Part shown: positions 2,271 to 8,249 of the stretch, in pieces
Layout of the letters: every line of letters begins with the position of its first letter
Position numbering within the stretch: position 1 is the stretch's first letter
From: Akkermansia muciniphila ATCC BAA-835
GTDB taxonomy: Bacteria > Verrucomicrobiota > Verrucomicrobiia > Verrucomicrobiales > Akkermansiaceae
Reading direction: 5' to 3'
Assembly: GCF_000020225.1 (NCBI RefSeq)
Contig: NC_010655.1
Span: forward strand, 2,400,001 to 2,432,000
Length of the DNA stretch: 32,000 bases
The notes under the pieces: model-generated
Database searches by the model: none
The model's input: only the letters and a program-made list of their open reading frames with translations
Told to the model about the DNA's origin: nothing
Program-made: the position numbers and the translations under genes

Positions 2271-3209
2271 TCATTTCCAGTCTACCCACAGTCTTTTCAA
2301 ATAATCCTCCCCGGAGAAATCCGGGGGCATGGGGTCATGAGTCAGGCGGAAACCGGGAACGGCACGGGCCACCATCCTGCGGAAGTCCTCGTGGCCCAGC
2401 TTGCGGCAGTTGCTGGTGCACAGCATCCAGCCGCCCGGTTCCAGGCATTCGCGAGCCAGCGCCACCAGCTCCCCGTAGTGGGATTCCACCCGGAACACCT
2501 TTCCGCGGTCATCCCGGGAAAACGTGGGAGGGTCCAGAATAATGCCGTGAAAGGTGCGGCCCTGCCTGGCGAACCGTTCCAGCCAGCGGCGCGCGTCCCC
2601 CTTGCAGAAATACTGGGCGGAGGGCTCAATGCCGTTCAGCATGAAATTTTCCCTGGCCCAGTCCAGGCACGGCTGCGCCAGATCCAGCGTGGTTGTCTGC
2701 GCTCCGCCCAGGGCCGCATAAACGGAAAAGGCTCCCGTATAGGCAAAAGTATTCAGCACCCTCATGCCCGGAGCGCTTTTTTCCCTCACCCGGCGGCGGT
2801 GGTCGCGCTGATCCAGAAAAATTCCCTGGGAATAACCGGCGGACATGTCTATTTTAAAACGCACTCCCTGCTCCAAGGCCGTAAATTGCAGGGGAAGGAG
2901 CGGCCCGGCGATCTGGACGGGCGCGTCTTTCTGGTTTTGTTCCAGTTTTTTGTGGAATACGGGCATGCCCGTATCCCGGAGTTCGCTTTCCAGGTCCGCA
3001 GGAATGGAACAGCCGCGTGTGGAGACGAGAAGACGATCCGCCATCTGATCCACAAAGACACCGGGGATTCCATCCCCCACCCCGTCCATGACCCGGAACA
3101 TATCCGTATCCGGCGGAATCAATTCCCTGTTGCGTTCCACGCAATAATGATAATTTCTCTCCACGGCAGAGCAAAGAGTAACGGATGAAGAACGTTCCCG
3201 CAATGTCAA
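2271..3209 (-). CDS. Class I SAM-dependent rRNA methyltransferase (RlmI/RlmK-like, COG1092/PF10672 type)
   Basis: 312-aa ORF. Motifs: FRVMDGVGDGIPGVFVDQMADRLLV, VLNTFAYTGAFSVYAALGGA (SAM pocket) and IILDPPTFS (catalytic DPPxF). The track start at 3209 is a TTG, so the true start is uncertain (somewhere in 3140-3209). Confidence 0.85.
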   Translation of the reverse strand: MTLRERSSSVTLCSAVERNYHYCVERNRELIPPDTDMFRVMDGVGDGIPGVFVDQMADRLLVSTRGCSIPADLESELRDTGMPVFHKKLEQNQKDAPVQIAGPLLPLQFTALEQGVRFKIDMSAGYSQGIFLDQRDHRRRVREKSAPGMRVLNTFAYTGAFSVYAALGGAQTTTLDLAQPCLDWARENFMLNGIEPSAQYFCKGDARRWLERFARQGRTFHGIILDPPTFSRDDRGKVFRVESHYGELVALARECLEPGGWMLCTSNCRKLGHEDFRRMVARAVPGFRLTHDPMPPDFSGEDYLKRLWVDWK

Positions 3210-3440
3210 AGAAGCAGGAGCCTCATTTCCTCCGGAGCAAGAGTTCCGCCAGGGAAAAACGGTTATTCGGACGGCCCTCCTTCATCAACAGAGACATTAA
3301 AAAAATCGCCTGCAAGGCTAGACCTTGCAGGCAACAACATTTTTTACTGCCGGAAAAGAGGTTCTCAAGCTCTTCGGCGGCGAACCATCAGGGCCGCCAG
3401 CCCCAGCAGACTCAGGGACGCCGTAGCAGGTTCCGGCACG
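2926..3440. repeat. Direct repeat, left-flank copy 1 (partner 4621-5125)
   Basis: By-eye alignment to 4621-5125 gives about 12 substitutions plus one 10-nt gap (caccggggat, present only in copy 1) over ~515 bp. The repeat covers the methyltransferase 5' end, the intergenic region with its terminator hairpin, and the last ~25 codons (PEP-CTERM tail) of the downstream gene. Confidence 0.9.
3299..3332 (-). terminator. Rho-independent terminator of PEP-CTERM gene A
   Basis: Perfect 10-bp stem gcctgcaagg/ccttgcaggc (3308-3317 / 3323-3332) with a 5-nt loop. On the minus strand it is followed by a 7-U run (A-run 3299-3305). It lies 33 nt downstream of the stop at 3365. Confidence 0.75.
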
Positions 3441-4138
3441 GCAAGACTCCTGGTTGCAGCAACAATTTCTTCAGGGGTCGCTACGCCCGGCGTAATGCCC
3501 ATGCCCGTTACATAGTCCGTGTTAACAAGCACAGTTTGATAGTTTTGGGATGTCGTCAAATCGGTGTAGGCAAAATTCCGACCATTATTGCATGGCACTC
3601 CATTACCCTTGTCATCAACTACTTTTGTTCCCTTTGCTCCGTCTGACTGGACAGCCGCCACGAGAGTAAGGGTGACGTAATCAGTCTCTTCCACGGTGTA
3701 GGAAAGATTCGCCAAACTCTCCAGAGAAAGGTAAGCAGAAGCACCAGGACTCCACACAGATCCCTGGTAGGCAAACTTAAGACCATCCGCCGTCAACATC
3801 AAGCCTATGGAACCGGAAGTTGAGTTTTCGCTTATTCTTAAATCAACCAGCAAAATGTTGAAAAAATCTGCTTCATGTATGGCGCTCCGCATAGCCGAGA
3901 GATTCAGGCTGAGCGTGATGGAGGAAGGATGACGCTCCCCACCGGTGGTAACTGCGGAAGAAATGGCACCTGCAGCAAACCCGTTGACGCTGTCATCTTC
4001 CGGAGAAGAGTAGGAGATATCCCCACCAGAAAAATTCTGCGACAGATCCGTAAAAAATGTAGTAGCGGCAACAGCACTGCCTTGAAGAAGCCCCCCCAAT
4101 AAGAGAGAGATAAAAGTTGAAAACTTCATATGCGACAT
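3365..4138 (-). CDS. PEP-CTERM sorting-domain protein A (secreted or cell-surface, no recognisable catalytic domain)
   Basis: 257-aa ORF with a signal peptide (MKFSTFISLLLGGLLQGSAVAA if started at the second ATG, 4129). The C-terminus VPEPATASLSLLGLAALMVRRRRA has the PEP motif, a TM helix and an Arg cluster, i.e. an exosortase sorting signal. The body is Ser/Thr/Gly/Asn-rich. Confidence 0.8.
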   Translation of the reverse strand: MSHMKFSTFISLLLGGLLQGSAVAATTFFTDLSQNFSGGDISYSSPEDDSVNGFAAGAISSAVTTGGERHPSSITLSLNLSAMRSAIHEADFFNILLVDLRISENSTSGSIGLMLTADGLKFAYQGSVWSPGASAYLSLESLANLSYTVEETDYVTLTLVAAVQSDGAKGTKVVDDKGNGVPCNNGRNFAYTDLTTSQNYQTVLVNTDYVTGMGITPGVATPEEIVAATRSLAVPEPATASLSLLGLAALMVRRRRA

Positions 4139-4141
4139 TGT

Positions 4142-4157
4142 GCGGATTAACTATCCG
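4142..4157. repeat. Inverted repeat, left arm of invertible segment A
   Basis: gcggattaactatccg is the exact reverse complement of 4370-4385. It has an internal dyad, CGGA-ttaacta-TCCG, around an asymmetric 7-bp core. Confidence 0.9.
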
Positions 4158-4369
4158 TTGGGAAAAAACAGGTATTGCACAATGTTCTCAAAAAATGATG
4201 AACAAATATCGTAATTAATTGAAAATCAAATTATATCTATTATATATCATGGAATTTGAAATAAACTCGTCCAAAAAACATTCACAGATATTTTCTACGA
4301 TTTGCCAATCTGTTTTTTCTGTCTGTGAATCTGCGTAAATTCCTTTTTTTTAAAAAAATAGTTTGACAG

Positions 4370-4385
4370 CGGATAGTTAATCCGC
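4370..4385. repeat. Inverted repeat, right arm of invertible segment A
   Basis: cggatagttaatccgc is the reverse complement of 4142-4157. A perfect TTGACA hexamer (4363-4368) lies just inside it. Confidence 0.9.
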
Positions 4386-4603
4386 TCACAAAAAAAGAGG
4401 CCGGATTTTTCATTCGGCTTCTCACAGGTCATTACACTGACCAACAACGATTTCCGCTTATTCAGCATACTGTTCGTTAAGAGCTTCCATGATTTCCCTG
4501 GAAGCTTCCGGAATGTTGGTGCCCGGTCCGAAGATGGCCACAGCTCCGTGTTCCTTCAGGAAGTCATAGTCCCGGACGGGAATAACGCTGCCACAGAAGA
4601 CCA
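4370..4603. repeat. Direct repeat, right-flank copy 1 (partner 6015-6250)
   Basis: Co-linear with 6015-6250: the IR arm, the terminator hairpin (degenerate here), then the 3' end of mutB. The coding part is near-identical, while the short stretch between the hairpin and the stop codon is more diverged and has small indels. Confidence 0.85.
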
Positions 4604-4612
4604 ATGATGTTC
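4458..4612 (-). pseudogene. Relic 3' fragment of methylmalonyl-CoA mutase large subunit (duplication remnant)
   Basis: The reverse strand translates to [47 protein letters not shown]. The intact mutB C-terminus at 6105-6250 reads [47 protein letters not shown]. There is no upstream coding continuation. The adjacent terminator copy (4397-4421) has two stem-disrupting substitutions. Confidence 0.85.
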
Positions 4613-4620
4613 AGAACGTT

Positions 4621-4894
4621 TCTTTCTGGTTTTGTTCCAGTTTTTTGTGGAATACGGGCATGCCCGTATCCCGGAGTTCGCTTTCCAGGTCCGCAGGAAT
4701 GGAACAGCCGCGCGTAGAGACGAGAAGACGATCCGCCATCTGATCCACAAAGATCCATCCCCCGCCCCGTCCATGACCCGGAACATACCCGTATCCGGCG
4801 GAATCAATTCCCTGTTGCGTTCCACGCAATGATGATCATTTCTCTCTACGGCAGAGCAAAGAGTAACGGATGAAGAACGTTCCCGCAATGTCAA
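4621..4894 (-). pseudogene. Relic 5' fragment of the RlmI/RlmK-like methyltransferase (frameshifted duplication remnant)
   Basis: The first ~45 codons match gene 2271-3209 (MTLRERSSSVTLCSAVERNDHHCVERNRELIPPDTGMFRVMDGAGDG vs ...NYHYCVERNRELIPPDTDMFRVMDGVGDG). A 10-nt deletion then shifts the frame. The fragment is truncated at 4621, where it abuts the mutB relic. Confidence 0.9.
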
Positions 4895-4983
4895 AGAAGC
4901 AGGAGCCTCATTTCCTCCGGAGCAAGAGTTCCGCCAGGGAAAAACGGTTATTCGGACGGCCCTCCTTCATCAACAGAGACATT

Positions 4984-5017
4984 AAAAAAATCGCCTGCAA
5001 GGCTAGACCTTGCAGGC
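4984..5017 (-). terminator. Rho-independent terminator of PEP-CTERM gene B (duplicate of 3299-3332)
   Basis: Same 10-bp stem (4993-5002 / 5008-5017), 5-nt loop and 7-U run (A-run 4984-4990), 33 nt downstream of the stop at 5050. Confidence 0.75.
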
Positions 5018-5049
5018 AACAACATTTTTTACTGCCGGAAAAGAGGTTC

Positions 5050-5754
5050 TCAAGCTCTTCGGCGGCGAGCCATCAGGGCCGTCAGCCCCAGCAGACTCAG
5101 GGACGCCGTGGCCGGTTCCGGAACGCTGGCTGTTTCTCCAGAAATAGCCAGAGCATTGAACGTAGGCGTGTGGGAGGAACCCGGAGTATTCACCGTCAGA
5201 ATAATTTCGCCATCTTCATTGGCAATAACGTCACTAATGGTGTACCCCGTGGGAGTCCGGGCCTGAATTGTCTGAGAGTTCGCACCTATGGAAGGAGCCG
5301 CGCTGTCGTAGGTATTGGAAGTCACCAGGGAATTCCAGGCACCGGCCCCCTCAAAAGGACACCCGGTAACAAGGGCAATCTGGTAGGAAGCACCAGCCAC
5401 CAGACCGGAAATAGTCAGGGAAAGAGAAGCTCCTTTGGGGCCGGAGATAAAGGTCTGCCAAGAGTTTCCGAAAGAGATCTGGTTTTCCATAAAAGAATCC
5501 AATCCCTGTGTATCAAAAGAAGTTCCGGAGGAAACCCAGTCCCCAGAAGCGGCGGAAGAAGTAGAACCCAGATTAGCGGAAGAGGCTGCCGTAGCCAGGG
5601 TTGCAACAAATCCGGAACCGGAATCGGTTACAGAAACAGTCTTGGCGGGAGTTTCCGGAAGCAAAGAACTGTTAAAATCAAATAATACAGTAGCAGCACT
5701 CGCGGAAAGCGCGGATACCACAGCCAACATGGAAATAGAGGCGATTCTTCTCAT
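5050..5754 (-). CDS. PEP-CTERM sorting-domain protein B (secreted or cell-surface, unrelated body to protein A)
   Basis: 234-aa ORF with an ATG start and a signal peptide (MRRIASISMLAVVSALSASAATV). The C-terminus VPEPATASLSLLGLTALMARRRRA matches protein A, but upstream of that tail I see no similarity to protein A. Confidence 0.8.
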   Translation of the reverse strand: MRRIASISMLAVVSALSASAATVLFDFNSSLLPETPAKTVSVTDSGSGFVATLATAASSANLGSTSSAASGDWVSSGTSFDTQGLDSFMENQISFGNSWQTFISGPKGASLSLTISGLVAGASYQIALVTGCPFEGAGAWNSLVTSNTYDSAAPSIGANSQTIQARTPTGYTISDVIANEDGEIILTVNTPGSSHTPTFNALAISGETASVPEPATASLSLLGLTALMARRRRA

Positions 5755-5791
5755 AAATAGCAGGTAAACAGCAACTGATTTCAGTCAGTAA

Positions 5792-5809
5792 CGGATTGAC
5801 TATCCGGTG
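5792..5809. repeat. Inverted repeat, left arm of invertible segment B
   Basis: cggattgactatccggtg is the exact reverse complement of 6013-6030. It differs from the A-site core by one base (ttGacta vs ttAacta). Confidence 0.9.
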
Positions 5810-6012
5810 TCAAATTATTTTTTAAAAAAAAGAGGGGGTTATGCGGACGGAACAGATGAAAAAACGGAGTATAGAAAAAATAATAAATAAAAATATCTCC
5901 AAAAATATTGGTTGCGACGTTTATTTTAAATAAATAATATGCTATTTATTATCAATAATTTGAAGTCGATAATAGCTGCTACTCCTGAATATTTTCAATG
6001 TCCGCTTTTTTT

Positions 6013-6030
6013 CACCGGATAGTCAATCCG
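6013..6030. repeat. Inverted repeat, right arm of invertible segment B
   Basis: caccggatagtcaatccg is the reverse complement of 5792-5809. It sits 5 nt from the mutB terminator. Confidence 0.9.
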
Positions 6031-6250
6031 CTCACAAAAAAGAGGCCGGATTTTTCATCCGGCCTCTCGCAACAGGTATTTACCTGATAAACAGGAAATT
6101 CCGTTTAGTCAGCGTACTGTTCGTTAAGAGCTTCCATGATTTCCCTGGAAGCTTCCGGAATGTTGGTGCCCGGGCCGAAGATGGCCACAGCTCCGTGTTC
6201 CTTCAGGAAGTCATAGTCCTGGGCGGGAATAACGCCGCCGCAGAAGACCA
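6015..6250. repeat. Direct repeat, right-flank copy 2 (partner 4370-4603)
   Basis: See 4370-4603. This copy holds the intact terminator and the functional mutB 3' end. Confidence 0.85.
6036..6066 (-). terminator. Rho-independent terminator of the mutA-mutB operon
   Basis: 9-bp stem gaggccgga/tccggcctc (6042-6050 / 6058-6066) with a 7-nt loop. On the minus strand it is followed by a U-run (A-run 6036-6041). It lies 39 nt downstream of the mutB stop. Confidence 0.75.
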
Positions 6251-8249
6251 GGATATCCGGACGGCCCTGCTTGGCAAGTTCCTCCACCAGGGCGGGAAGG
6301 AGAACCTTGTGGCCGGCGGCCAGAGAGCTCATGCCGATCATGTGCACGTCGTTTTCAATCGCCATTTTGGCAGTTTCCTCCGGCGTCTGGAAGAGCGGGC
6401 CCACGTCCACGTCAAAACCGAGGTCGGCATAGGCGGAGGAGACCACCTTGGCGCCGCGGTCATGGCCGTCCTGGCCCATTTTGGCGACAAGGATGCGGGG
6501 ACGACGCCCCGTGCGTTCGGCGAAGTCATCCGTCATCTTGCGGACTTCCTCCACCAGCGGATCTTGACCATAGGATTGAGCGTACACGCCGGTAATGAGT
6601 TTGATTGGTGCTTTATGACGCCCGAAGTGTTTTTCCAGGGCGGAGGAGATTTCACCCAGGGAGGCGCGGGCCTTGGCCGCCTTGATGGCAAGGTCAAGGA
6701 GATTGCCTTCCCCCGTGCGGGCGCATTCGGACAGGGCTTCCAGCGCGGCTTCGCACGCGGCGGAGTCCCGTTCCGCGCGCAGTTTCTGCAGGCGGGCGAT
6801 CTGGGCTTCCCGGACGGTGGTGTTGTCCACTTCCAGAATATCGATCTGGGCTTCCTGTTCCAGACGGTATTTGTTAACGCCGATGATGGGTTCCTTTCCG
6901 GAGTCAATGGCGGCCTGGCGGCGCGCTGCGGCTTCTTCAATGCGCATCTTGGGCAGCCCGGTTTCAATGGCCTTGGCCATGCCTCCGAGTTTTTCCACTT
7001 CCTGAAGGTGGGCCCAGCCCTTGCGAATGAGCTCATTGGTCAGGTATTCCACATAGTAGGAACCGCCCCACGGGTCGATTACCTTGCAGATGGTGGTTTC
7101 ATCCTGAAGATGAAGCTGGGTGTTGCGGGCGATGCGGGCGGAGAAGTCCGTCGGCAGGGCAATCGCTTCGTCCAGGGAGTTCGTGTGCAGGGACTGCGTA
7201 TGGCCGCAGGCAGCGGCTAGGGCCTCAATGCAGGTGCGGGTGACGTTGTTGAACGGGTCCTGTTCCGTGAGGGACCAGCCGGAAGTCTGGGAGTGCGTGC
7301 GCAAGGCCAGGGACTTCGGGTTCTTGGGATTGAACTGCTTGATGAGTTTGGCCCACAGCACGCGGGCGGCGCGCATTTTGGCCACTTCCATGAAGTAATT
7401 CTTGCCCTGGGCCCAGAAGAAGGAAAGACGCGGCGCGAAGGCGTCAATGTCAATGCCCGCCTTGATCCCGGTGCGGACATATTCTAGGCCGTCCGCAAGG
7501 GTGTAGGCCATTTCCAGGTCCGCCGTAGCGCCGGCCTCCTGCATGTGGTAGCCGGAGATGGAAATGGAGTTAAACTTGGGCATGTACTTGGAGGTGAACT
7601 CAAAGATGTCCGCAATAATCCTCATGGAGGGATCAGGCGGGTAAATGTAGGTGTTGCGCACCATGTATTCCTTGAGAATGTCATTCTGGATCGTGCCGGA
7701 GAGCTGGTCCAGCGTGCAGCCCTGTTCCTGGGCGGCGACGATGTAGAAGGCCAGCACGGGCAACACGGCGCCGTTCATGGTCATGGAAACGGACATTTTG
7801 TCCAGGGGAATGCCCTTGAAGAGGATTTCCATGTCCAGAATGGAGTCCACGGCCACGCCGGCCTTGCCCACGTCACCCACCACGCGGGGGTGATCGGAGT
7901 CATAGCCGCGGTGCGTCGCCAGGTCAAAGGCAATGGAAAGGCCCTTCTGGCCCGCCGCCAGGTTGCGGCGGTAGAAGGCATTGGATTCCTCAGCCGTGGA
8001 AAAGCCGGCGTACTGGCGCACCGTCCAGGGGCGCGCCACATACATGGTGGCATACGGTCCGCGGAGGTTGGGAGCCACACCGGCCGTAAAGTCCAGGTGC
8101 AGGCAGTCGTCGTACACGCTTTCCGAGTAGGTGGGCGGCACGGGAATTTGTTCATTGGTCATCCAGGTTTCCGTTTCGGAAGCCGGGGACGGGGCACCAG
8201 CCTTGATTTCAGGATAGGAGGCGGATGCAAAATCAGGAATATTGCTCAT
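6105..8249 (-). CDS. mutB: Methylmalonyl-CoA mutase large (alpha, catalytic) subunit
   Basis: 714 aa. It has the canonical MCM alpha motifs ([51 protein letters not shown]) and a C-terminal B12-binding domain with DxHxxG ([12 protein letters not shown]). Confidence 0.95.

What the first reader, a model, noticed from the sequence alone, without database searches (positions are those of the whole stretch)
4142..6030. The two switch cores are reverse complements of each other while their flanks are co-linear: a record of inversion in the sequence
The outside flanks of the two units run in the same direction: PEP-CTERM tail and terminator on the left, mutB terminator and mutB 3' end on the right. 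The cores do not. The right inner end of A (4330-4369, tctgcgtaaattccttttttttaaaaaaatagtttgacag) aligns with the reverse complement of the left inner end of B (5810-5850, rc ...ccgcataaccccctcttttttttaaaaaataatttgaca). The left inner end of A (ttgggaaaaaacaggtattg...) aligns with the reverse complement of the right inner end of B (rc gtgaaaaaaagcggacattg...). At least one core has therefore flipped between its IRs since the duplication. That is stronger evidence for a working switch than the IRs alone.
Basis: seen in the sequence. Interest (0 to 1): 0.9.

Follow-up and report, generated by a model that had tools for sequence, protein, structure and literature searches.

The report
Two Akkermansia promoter flip-switches, opposite states
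Two neighbouring invertible DNA switches in front of surface-protein genes of the gut bacterium Akkermansia muciniphila were caught in opposite orientations, and other assemblies show both really flip; this switch family is already published, so the finding is correct but ordinary.

Summary
Core A (4158-4369) and core B (5808-6014) align only as reverse complements: global score 53, against 5 in the forward direction and 4.8 +/- 5.8 for shuffles. The outer flanks are co-linear.

Both segments really invert. In other A. muciniphila assemblies, 100%-identical cores sit in either orientation between unchanged flanks. For A, 6 face mutB and 3 face the gene. For B, 9 face the gene and 4 face mutB. 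Three of the four combinations occur on contigs that span both switches.

These are members of the published A. muciniphila inverton family, with inverted-repeat (IR) motif CGGATT..AATCCG, which is reported as enriched next to PEP-CTERM genes. Each core carries a T/A tract and a perfect TTGACA one base from one IR. In the window, A points away from its gene (OFF) and B points at its gene (ON). No recombinase lies within the 32 kb.

The "duplication" is a true tandem join with its junction at 4603/4617. However, the gene bodies are unrelated and the cores are only 64% alike, so two cassette alleles were joined.

One detail may be new. The IR itself appears to be the promoter spacer, with the -10 element in the fixed flank on the gene side.

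The parts
2926..3260 (-). 5' part of the SAM-dependent methyltransferase gene (2271-3209) plus its upstream region. This is the original of the copy at 4621-4945.
   Evidence: Pfam PF10672. 95% identity to 4621-4945.
3305..3335 (-). Terminator hairpin of PEP-CTERM gene A. It is identical to the one at 4990-5020.
   Evidence: repeat D2, 3300-3440 ~ 4985-5125, 96%.
3365..4138 (-). PEP-CTERM surface-protein gene A (257 aa). A second in-frame ATG at 4129 starts the signal peptide MKFSTF...
   Evidence: ORF list, PF07589, translation.
4142..4157 (+). Switch A, gene-side inverted repeat GCGGATTAACTATCCG.
4158..4369 (.). Switch A invertible core, 212 nt, 23-31% GC in 100-nt windows.
   Evidence: Found flipped at 100% identity in L002 and L003 and near-identical in L133.
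4344..4368 (+). Switch A T8A7 tract (resembling an UP element) followed by the -35-like TTGACA (4363-4368). It points right, away from gene A, so A is read as OFF in this window.
   Evidence: Sequence. This is the most conserved block across diverged cores.
4370..4385 (-). Switch A, far-side inverted repeat.
4386..4603 (-). Copy of the mutB terminator and the last ~170 nt of mutB (a pseudo-fragment). This is the right arm of tandem unit A.
   Evidence: Repeats D1, D4 and D5, 88-92% identity to 6008-6250.
4621..4945 (-). Copy of the methyltransferase 5' part. Together with the piece before it, this marks the tandem-duplication junction at about 4603/4617.
   Evidence: 95% identity to 2926-3260.
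4990..5020 (-). Terminator hairpin of PEP-CTERM gene B.
5050..5754 (-). PEP-CTERM surface-protein gene B (234 aa). The predicted fold is a beta-sandwich.
   Evidence: CBM-like matches are weak only.
5792..5807 (+). Switch B, gene-side inverted repeat CGGATTGACTATCCGG.
5808..6014 (.). Switch B invertible core, 207 nt, 21-39% GC in 100-nt windows.
   Evidence: Found flipped at 100% identity in L007 and L009 and near-identical in L136 and L141.
5808..5831 (-). Switch B -35-like TTGACA (5813-5808 on the minus strand), preceded by a T8A6 tract. It points left, into gene B, so B is read as ON in this window.
   Evidence: Sequence, alignment.
6015..6030 (-). Switch B, far-side inverted repeat.
6040..6068 (-). 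mutB terminator hairpin.
6105..8249 (-). mutB (methylmalonyl-CoA mutase large subunit). This is the fixed right-hand neighbour.
   Evidence: PF01642 and PF02310.

Best explanation
4142-4385 and 5792-6030 are two paralogous promoter invertons of the Akkermansia muciniphila family whose inverted repeats (IRs) read CGGATT..AATCCG. Each sits directly upstream of a minus-strand gene for a PEP-CTERM-sorted surface protein.

A site-specific recombinase encoded elsewhere in the genome (not in this 32 kb) exchanges strands within the 15-16 nt IRs and flips the ~210 nt AT-rich core. One end of each core carries a T/A tract resembling an UP element and a perfect TTGACA, one base from the IR and reading outward. 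When that end faces the gene, the gene is transcribed (ON). When it faces mutB, the gene is silent (OFF). In this window A is OFF and B is ON.

Shown: the IRs; the reverse-complement relation of the cores; precise inversion of both cores in nature; membership of the IR family; and the PEP-CTERM targets.

Inferred: the promoter identity and the ON/OFF assignment; a trans-acting invertase; and that the IR itself is the 16-18 nt promoter spacer, with the -10 in the fixed gene-side flank. Also inferred is that the one-base difference in the asymmetric centre of the site (GTT in A, GTC in B, reading from core outward) keeps the two adjacent switches from recombining with each other.

The tandem arrangement arose by joining two cassette alleles of one hypervariable locus between the methyltransferase gene and mutB.
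For: Inverted repeats and statistics.

Inversion in nature. Unit A has TTGACA facing mutB in the window, L001, L004, L005, L006 and L009, and facing gene A in L002, L003 and L133. Unit B faces gene B in the window, L001-L006, L008 and L142, and faces mutB in L007, L009, L136 and L141. Flipped cores are 100% identical in L002, L003, L007 and L009. The single bases just outside the IRs stay in place (c2 against c3), so the crossover lies inside the IR. Contig L007 ends exactly at the outer edge of switch A's far-side (mutB-fragment-side) IR.

Family membership. The mBio 2026 paper PMC13343947 quotes the Jiang 2019 motif as CGGATT..AATCCG and shows ON/OFF experimentally for the cps1 inverton. Microbiome 2025 PMC11892184 describes inverton group 138, with 32 invertons in ATCC BAA-835, a conserved IR, a promoter-like motif and enrichment next to PEP-CTERM genes.

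Promoter. The T/A tract plus TTGACA next to the IR is the best-conserved block across diverged cores. The same layout, TTGAC[ACGT] 0-1 nt from the IR, occurs in all 11 independent units examined, including a second unrelated IR family.

-10 element in the fixed flank. The best -10 match at 16-18 nt spacing averages 3.6/6 on gene-side flanks, 2.4 on non-gene flanks and 2.0 at random. 'TA' at 17-nt spacing occurs in 11/13 gene-side and 1/8 non-gene flanks (Fisher p=0.002). Within the CGGAT family alone it is 5/7 against 0/7 (p=0.02).

No recombinase domain was found in any large ORF of the window.

Tandem join: 4621-4945 matches 2926-3260 at 95%. Single-unit lineages exist: L130/L157 with gene A only, and L131/L164 with gene B only.
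Against: There are no transcript or transcription-start data, so the ON/OFF assignment rests on promoter-like sequence only.

The predicted -10 for gene B itself is poor (TACTGA, 2/6). The same is true for A' (TAATTG) and P0138 (TAAGGG).

The orientation evidence comes from assemblies (the majority state per sample), not from reads. I could not open the published inverton tables to confirm that these two loci are listed.

The recombinase is unidentified, so its class is a guess from the site geometry.

The non-gene flanks of A/B and of A'/B2 are homologous, so they are not independent data points in the -10 test.
Confidence: 0.85

Rival explanations
1. A frozen relic. The opposite orientation of A and B records one ancient inversion, or two independent insertions of a repeat element in opposite orientation. 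On this view neither segment flips today.
For: Cores A and B are only 64% identical. The gene bodies are unrelated. The A-versus-B comparison alone therefore says nothing about recent events.
Against: Cores that are 100% identical occur in both orientations between identical flanks, in independent isolates and metagenomes, for both A and B. The same family is experimentally phase-variable in this species (PMC13343947; PMC11892184).
Confidence: 0.03
2. Chance or artefact. The reverse-complement similarity would be A/T low-complexity, and the orientation differences between assemblies would be mis-assemblies across inverted repeats.
For: The cores are 21-39% GC in 100-nt windows. Several contigs break in or near the switches.
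Against: The reverse score is 53 against 5 forward, and shuffles never exceed 20.5. The matching ends include non-trivial words such as TCYGCRTAA and TTTGACA. The IRs are 15-16 nt, shorter than assembler k-mers, so orientation is fixed by reads that span them. Flipped copies are exact and their junction bases behave as expected for recombination within the IR.
Confidence: 0.02
3. A real switch, but with a self-contained promoter or some other cis element (for example a terminator or leader) wholly inside the core. On this view the IR is only a recombination site and the fixed flank contributes no -10.
For: This is the textbook design (my own knowledge: fimS, Bacteroides capsule promoters). A sigma-70 scan finds TTGAAA-18-TATTAT inside core B, on the strand that also reads toward gene B. 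The flank -10 of gene B is weak.
Against: The TTGAAA/TATTAT site is not conserved in core A or in other lineages. TTGAC[ACGT] abuts the IR in 11/11 units from two IR families, which leaves no room for a -10 inside the core. -10-like hexamers are enriched just outside the IR on gene sides only.
Confidence: 0.35

Closest known systems
Akkermansia muciniphila intergenic invertons with IR motif CGGATT..AATCCG (Jiang et al. 2019 Science, PhaseFinder; inverton group 138 of Microbiome 2025 PMC11892184; cps1 inverton of mBio 2026 PMC13343947)
   Same: Same species and same IR motif. Similar small size (~240 nt here including the IRs). Intergenic, directly upstream of a surface-structure gene. PEP-CTERM genes are the reported enriched neighbours. 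Both orientations are found in nature. No invertase is reported as linked, and none is found nearby here.
   Different: Nothing fundamental differs. The features specific to this locus are as follows. Two switches lie in tandem 1.65 kb apart and differ by one base in the site centre. The tandem junction is built from mutB and methyltransferase fragments. The IR appears to be used as the promoter spacer; I did not find this stated in the papers I could read, and Jiang 2019 was not readable.
Bacteroides fragilis capsule and other surface-gene promoter invertons, flipped by the global serine invertase Mpi (my own knowledge; Krinos 2001 is cited in PMC13343947)
   Same: Many small promoter invertons share one IR motif, control surface structures of a gut commensal, and are served by an invertase encoded elsewhere.
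   Different: The IR sequence and the phylum differ. The Bacteroidetes-type promoter lies wholly inside the invertible segment. Mpi is a serine recombinase, whereas the 6-3-6 site geometry here fits a tyrosine recombinase better (inference).
E. coli fimS switch (FimB/FimE tyrosine recombinases; my own knowledge)
   Same: A short invertible segment carries a promoter that reads into the adjacent surface-appendage gene, giving ON/OFF phase variation.
   Different: fimS has 9-bp IRs, recombinase genes next to the switch, and a complete promoter inside the element.
Hybrid promoters made by outward-facing -35 boxes at the ends of insertion sequences (my own knowledge)
   Same: A mobile -35 element is brought to the correct distance from a resident -10 element, creating a promoter across the junction.
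   Different: Those arise by transposition and are not reversible. Here the junction would be made and unmade by site-specific inversion.

Membership tests
A. muciniphila CGGATT..AATCCG promoter invertons (Jiang 2019; group 138) | Inverted repeat matching CGGATT..AATCCG. | tested here: met
   CGGATT[A/G]ACTATCCG occurs 4 times in two inverted pairs, against 0.08 expected. The motif is as quoted in PMC13343947.
A. muciniphila CGGATT..AATCCG promoter invertons (Jiang 2019; group 138) | Short intergenic segment between the IRs, next to a surface-structure gene (PEP-CTERM genes are enriched). | tested here: met
   The cores are 212 and 207 nt. The ATG of each PEP-CTERM gene lies 4-37 nt from the IR. 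Enrichment is reported in PMC11892184.
A. muciniphila CGGATT..AATCCG promoter invertons (Jiang 2019; group 138) | Both orientations present in sequence data. | tested here: met
   A shows 6 against 3 and B shows 9 against 4 across assemblies, with the cores 100% identical in four of the seven flipped copies. This is assembly-level evidence, not read-level.
A. muciniphila CGGATT..AATCCG promoter invertons (Jiang 2019; group 138) | Carries a promoter that drives the neighbouring gene in one orientation. | tested here: inconclusive
   A T/A tract plus TTGACA is conserved at one core end, and flank -10-like hexamers are enriched. No expression data are available.
A. muciniphila CGGATT..AATCCG promoter invertons (Jiang 2019; group 138) | These exact loci are listed in the published catalogues. 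| not testable with these tools
   Jiang 2019 is not held. The supplementary tables of PMC11892184 are not held as text.
Recombinase-mediated inversion (tyrosine or serine invertase) | A cognate recombinase gene. | tested here: not met
   No recombinase, integrase or resolvase domain occurs in any large ORF of the 32 kb window, or among the Pfam-annotated called genes of the related loci that list them. It must act in trans. Its identity is unknown.
Simple tandem duplication of one unit | The two copies are alike along their whole length. | tested here: not met
   The flanks are 92-96% alike and the junction at 4603/4617 is clear. The cores are only 64% alike and inverted. The gene bodies are unrelated except for the last 25 aa. 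Single-unit lineages carry either gene A or gene B.

The most novel reading that the evidence does not exclude
These invertons would be split promoters. The invertible core carries only the UP-like tract and the -35 box. The recombination site itself forms the 16-18 nt promoter spacer. The -10 box lies in the fixed DNA, on the gene side only. Inversion would then assemble or dismantle a promoter across the crossover site, rather than turning a complete promoter around.

The same design recurs with a different repeat, ACAGCATT-nnn-AATGCTGT, in related bacteria. There one switch can sit between two divergent surface-protein genes and serve either of them.

For gene A, the predicted transcription start falls on the second ATG, which would give a leaderless mRNA.
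Probability: 0.5. Interest if true: 0.5.

Novelty: already known. Interest (0 to 1): 0.3.

Why it matters
A. muciniphila is a candidate probiotic, and its surface varies from cell to cell. These two switches add two PEP-CTERM surface proteins (one with a weakly carbohydrate-binding-module-like beta-sandwich) to the phase-variable repertoire. In sister strains, a near-identical switch controls a capsule locus instead.

The general point is modest. Comparing paralogous invertons within a single assembly can reveal switching without any read data, and that logic was correct here.

If the split-promoter design is confirmed, it would explain three things: why the repeat length is fixed at about 15-17 nt, why the OFF state is tight, and how RNA polymerase and the invertase might compete for the same DNA. 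It would also offer a compact natural template for synthetic recombinase switches.

Tried and rejected
- **Genome scan, wasted.** I scanned genome contigs with the bare 15-mer CGGATTNACTATCCG. It returned 120 chance hits across all phyla. The only 'Akkermansia' hit (L080) lies inside a GC-rich coding region and is a chance match.
- **PEP-CTERM tail profile searches.** The second returned only gene fragments.
- **Sigma-70 consensus scan.** It proposed TTGAAA-18-TATTAT inside core B. I rejected this as the main promoter because it is not conserved in core A or in other lineages.
- **A -10 box inside the IR, or a -35 box further upstream.** The spacings are impossible (3-8 nt) or the hexamers are not conserved.
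- **Rfam search of 3200-6300.** Nothing came near a gathering score, so there is no known RNA element.
- **Jiang 2019 and the inverton tables of PMC11892184.** Neither could be read.
- **Literature search for natural split-promoter invertons.** Nothing was found in the held library. This is not proof of absence.
- **Recombinase.** None was found in the window, and none among the Pfam-annotated called genes of the fetched loci. L180 has a Y1 transposase gene but no inverton.
Full report
**Anatomy**

The region holds two similar units on the minus-strand gene side.

- Unit A: PEP-CTERM gene A (3365-4138, minus), inverted repeat (IR) pair 4142-4157 / 4370-4385 (GCGGATTAACTATCCG), and a 212-nt AT-rich core between them. 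To the right come a copy of the mutB terminator and the last ~170 nt of mutB (4386-4603).
- Unit B: PEP-CTERM gene B (5050-5754, minus), IR pair 5792-5807 / 6015-6030 (CGGATTGACTATCCGG), and a 207-nt core. To the right come the real mutB terminator and mutB (6105-8249, minus).

The core regions drop to 21-39% GC in 100-nt windows, against roughly 45-65% in the flanking genes. The IR 15-mer occurs exactly four times in the 32 kb, against 0.08 expected.

**Checking the observation**

A global alignment of core A against core B scores 5 forward and 53 as reverse complement. Shuffles of core B give 4.8 +/- 5.8, with a maximum of 20.5.

blastn of 4100-4450 against 5750-6100 shows a forward diagonal outside the right IR and reverse diagonals between the IRs.

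One correction applies. What touches the left IR is the start codon end of each PEP-CTERM gene, and those starts are not alike. The shared PEP-CTERM tail and terminator (3300-3440 ~ 4985-5125, 96%) lie at the far end of the genes.

**Do the cores flip?**

I looked up the exact protein B in public assemblies and obtained nine A. muciniphila loci, including CP024740.1. A metagenome scan with the core-end/IR junction gave 38 more loci, all at this same locus in several lineages.

With flanks aligned, the orientation of TTGACA is as follows:

| Unit | Faces mutB | Faces the gene |
|---|---|---|
| A | window, L001, L004, L005, L006, L009 | L002, L003, L133 |
| B | L007, L009, L136, L141 | window, L001-L006, L008, L142 |

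The flipped cores are 100% identical to the window's in L002, L003, L007 and L009. The single bases just outside the IRs stay with the flanks, so the exchange happens inside the IR. On contigs that span both switches, three of the four combinations occur. A-on/B-off was not seen. Contig L007 ends exactly at the outer edge of one of switch A's IRs, the far-side one next to the mutB fragment.

**What it is**

The IR matches the motif CGGATT..AATCCG. The mBio 2026 capsule paper (PMC13343947) attributes this motif to Jiang et al. 2019. That paper shows experimentally that an inverton with this motif switches the cps1 capsule locus ON and OFF in culture, in mice and in humans.

The Microbiome 2025 survey (PMC11892184) places 32 invertons of A. 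muciniphila ATCC BAA-835 in one IR group (group 138). It reports a promoter-like motif in them and finds PEP-CTERM genes enriched beside them. A long-read survey found that Akkermansia has the most intergenic invertons per genome of any group examined (PMC10028968).

The two switches here are therefore members of a published family in the same species. I could not open the published tables to see whether these exact loci are listed.

**How it probably works**

I aligned diverged versions of the cores: A, a second-lineage A' at about 80% score identity, B and its variants, and a very different 242-nt B2. The conserved parts are the IRs, a short block TCYGCRTAAATTCYT, a T-run/A-run, and TTGACA one base from one IR, reading outward. 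From established knowledge of sigma-70 promoters, a T-run/A-run directly upstream of a perfect -35 box resembles an UP element plus -35.

In the window this end faces mutB in A (OFF for gene A) and faces gene B in B (ON). A -35 box that abuts a 15-16 nt repeat places the -10 box at the outer edge of the repeat, in the fixed flank.

To test this, I fetched paralogous PEP-CTERM loci.

- The P0063 locus has its own inverton (IR CGGATTCATAATCCG). It is polymorphic between assemblies, with L168-171 in one state and L172 flipped.
- The P0138 and P0134 loci have further family members.
- In another genus, homologous genes carry invertons with a different repeat, ACAGCATT-nnn-AATGCTGT.

In all 11 units, TTGAC[ACGT] lies 0-1 nt from the IR. 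The hexamers at 16-18 nt spacing on the gene side are CACAAT (A), TATAAG (B2), TAACAT, TATAGT, TATATT, TATACA and TAGATT. They are poor for B (TACTGA), A' and P0138.

- Mean best match is 3.6/6 on gene sides, 2.4 on non-gene sides and 2.0 at random.
- 'TA' at 17-nt spacing occurs in 11/13 gene-side and 1/8 non-gene flanks (p=0.002).
- Within the CGGAT family alone, it is 5/7 against 0/7 (p=0.02).

This supports a split promoter but does not prove it. Some flanks are homologous to one another, and no transcript data exist.

**Recombination site and enzyme**

Read from core to flank, the sites are CGGATA-GTT-AATCCG (A), CGGATA-GTC-AATCCG (B), CGGATT-CAT-AATCCG, CGGATT-GGC-AATTCG and CGAATT-CCC-AATCCG. 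Each has two 6-nt inverted half-sites around a 3-nt asymmetric centre.

The centre is the same in both repeats of a pair and differs between units. From general knowledge of site-specific recombination, this would favour recombination within a pair and disfavour recombination between neighbouring switches. I infer that this insulates A from B, which differ by one base. In both tandem lineages the two units differ at this base. An odd-length centre fits a tyrosine recombinase better than a serine one, but this is only an inference.

No recombinase domain occurs in the window, so the enzyme acts in trans, as expected for a genome-wide family.

**History of the pair**

4621-4945 is a 95% copy of 2926-3260, the 5' part of the methyltransferase gene left of gene A. 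The layout is therefore: methyltransferase - gene A - switch A - mutB fragment | methyltransferase fragment - gene B - switch B - mutB. This is a textbook tandem junction at 4603/4617.

However, proteins A and B share only their last 25 residues, and the cores are 64% alike. Some lineages have a single unit with gene A (L130, L157, carrying a B-like core). Others have a single unit with gene B (L131, L164). The simplest reading is that two alleles of one hypervariable cassette were joined in tandem.

In a second A. muciniphila lineage, the homologue of switch A sits upstream of a capsule-type operon with Wza-like, Wzc-like, CpsB and sugar-transferase genes, instead of gene A.

**What is switched**

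Both proteins have a signal peptide and a PEP-CTERM anchor. A model of protein B (pLDDT 78) is a beta-sandwich. It has only weak resemblance to carbohydrate-binding modules CBM6/35 (best E 4e-3, TM 0.3-0.47). This is a hint, not an assignment.

**Verdict**

The object is a known kind of switch in a species where it is already documented, so interest is low to moderate. The possibly new points are the split-promoter geometry, the one-base insulation of adjacent switches, and the cassette-like evolution of the locus.

Noticed in passing
window 4621-4945 and 2926-3260: The apparent 342-nt 'insertion' inside the mutB fragment of unit A is a 95% copy of the 5' part of the neighbouring methyltransferase gene. 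This fixes the tandem-duplication junction at about 4603/4617.
   Followed up: yes
L144 2380-7811 (also L143, L152, L155 and about 25 other loci): In a second A. muciniphila lineage, the homologue of switch A (same IR, core about 80% score identity) lies upstream of a capsule-type operon (Poly_export/SLBB Wza-like, Wzz-GNVR-AAA Wzc-like, CpsB, Bac_transf) instead of PEP-CTERM gene A. In 25 of 27 assemblies its TTGACA end faces away from that operon.
   Followed up: partly
L173, L174, L175, L178, L179 (upstream of PEP-CTERM homologues P0061, P0058, P0080, P0117, P0132): A second inverton family has repeats ACAGCATT-nnn-AATGCTGT but the same layout, with TTGAC[ACT] one base from the repeat. In L175 and L178 the switch lies between two divergent genes and could serve either. 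L179 has three sites, with -35-like boxes on both sides of the middle one.
   Followed up: partly
L168-L172, about 60-300 nt upstream of the P0063 gene: Another CGGATT..AATCCG inverton at an unrelated locus, between a PrmA-like methyltransferase gene and a GH77 gene. It is in one orientation in L168-171 and flipped in L172.
   Followed up: partly
window 4344-4358 and 5818-5831; alignment: The T-run/A-run next to TTGACA varies between assemblies (T7A7, T8A6, T9A5, T6A8 as counted by the script). The total length is nearly constant. The boundary shifts rather than the spacing. One lineage (B2) lacks 8 nt of the tract.
   Followed up: no
window 4129-4141 (minus strand): Gene A has two in-frame ATGs, at 4138 and 4129. 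The predicted -10 hexamer CACAAT overlaps the first ATG and lies 7 nt before the second. The ON-state mRNA might therefore be leaderless and start at MKFSTF. B2 in L144 has TATAAG 9 nt before its ATG.
   Followed up: no
L130 and L157: A single-unit lineage has a gene A allele (86-89% identity) preceded by a B-like core (91%), but with the A-type site centre (TAACT). Cores, site centres and genes therefore reassort between lineages.
   Followed up: no
L005 (CP024740.1) 4743-4953 in window orientation: Core B in this complete genome is 28 nt shorter and has many small differences from all other assemblies. It is either a real variant or homopolymer errors in an AT-rich stretch.
   Followed up: no
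L007, L009, L136, L148, L167 contig ends: Many contigs end at or within tens of bases of the switches or the duplicated mutB terminator. L007 ends exactly at the outer edge of one of switch A's inverted repeats (the far-side one, next to the mutB fragment). This is as expected for mixed orientation or repeated flanks.
   Followed up: no
window 5050-5754 (protein B): The predicted structure (pLDDT 78) is a beta-sandwich. Only weak Foldseek matches to carbohydrate-binding modules CBM6/35/36 were found (best E 4e-3). There is no Pfam domain apart from the PEP-CTERM anchor.
   Followed up: partly
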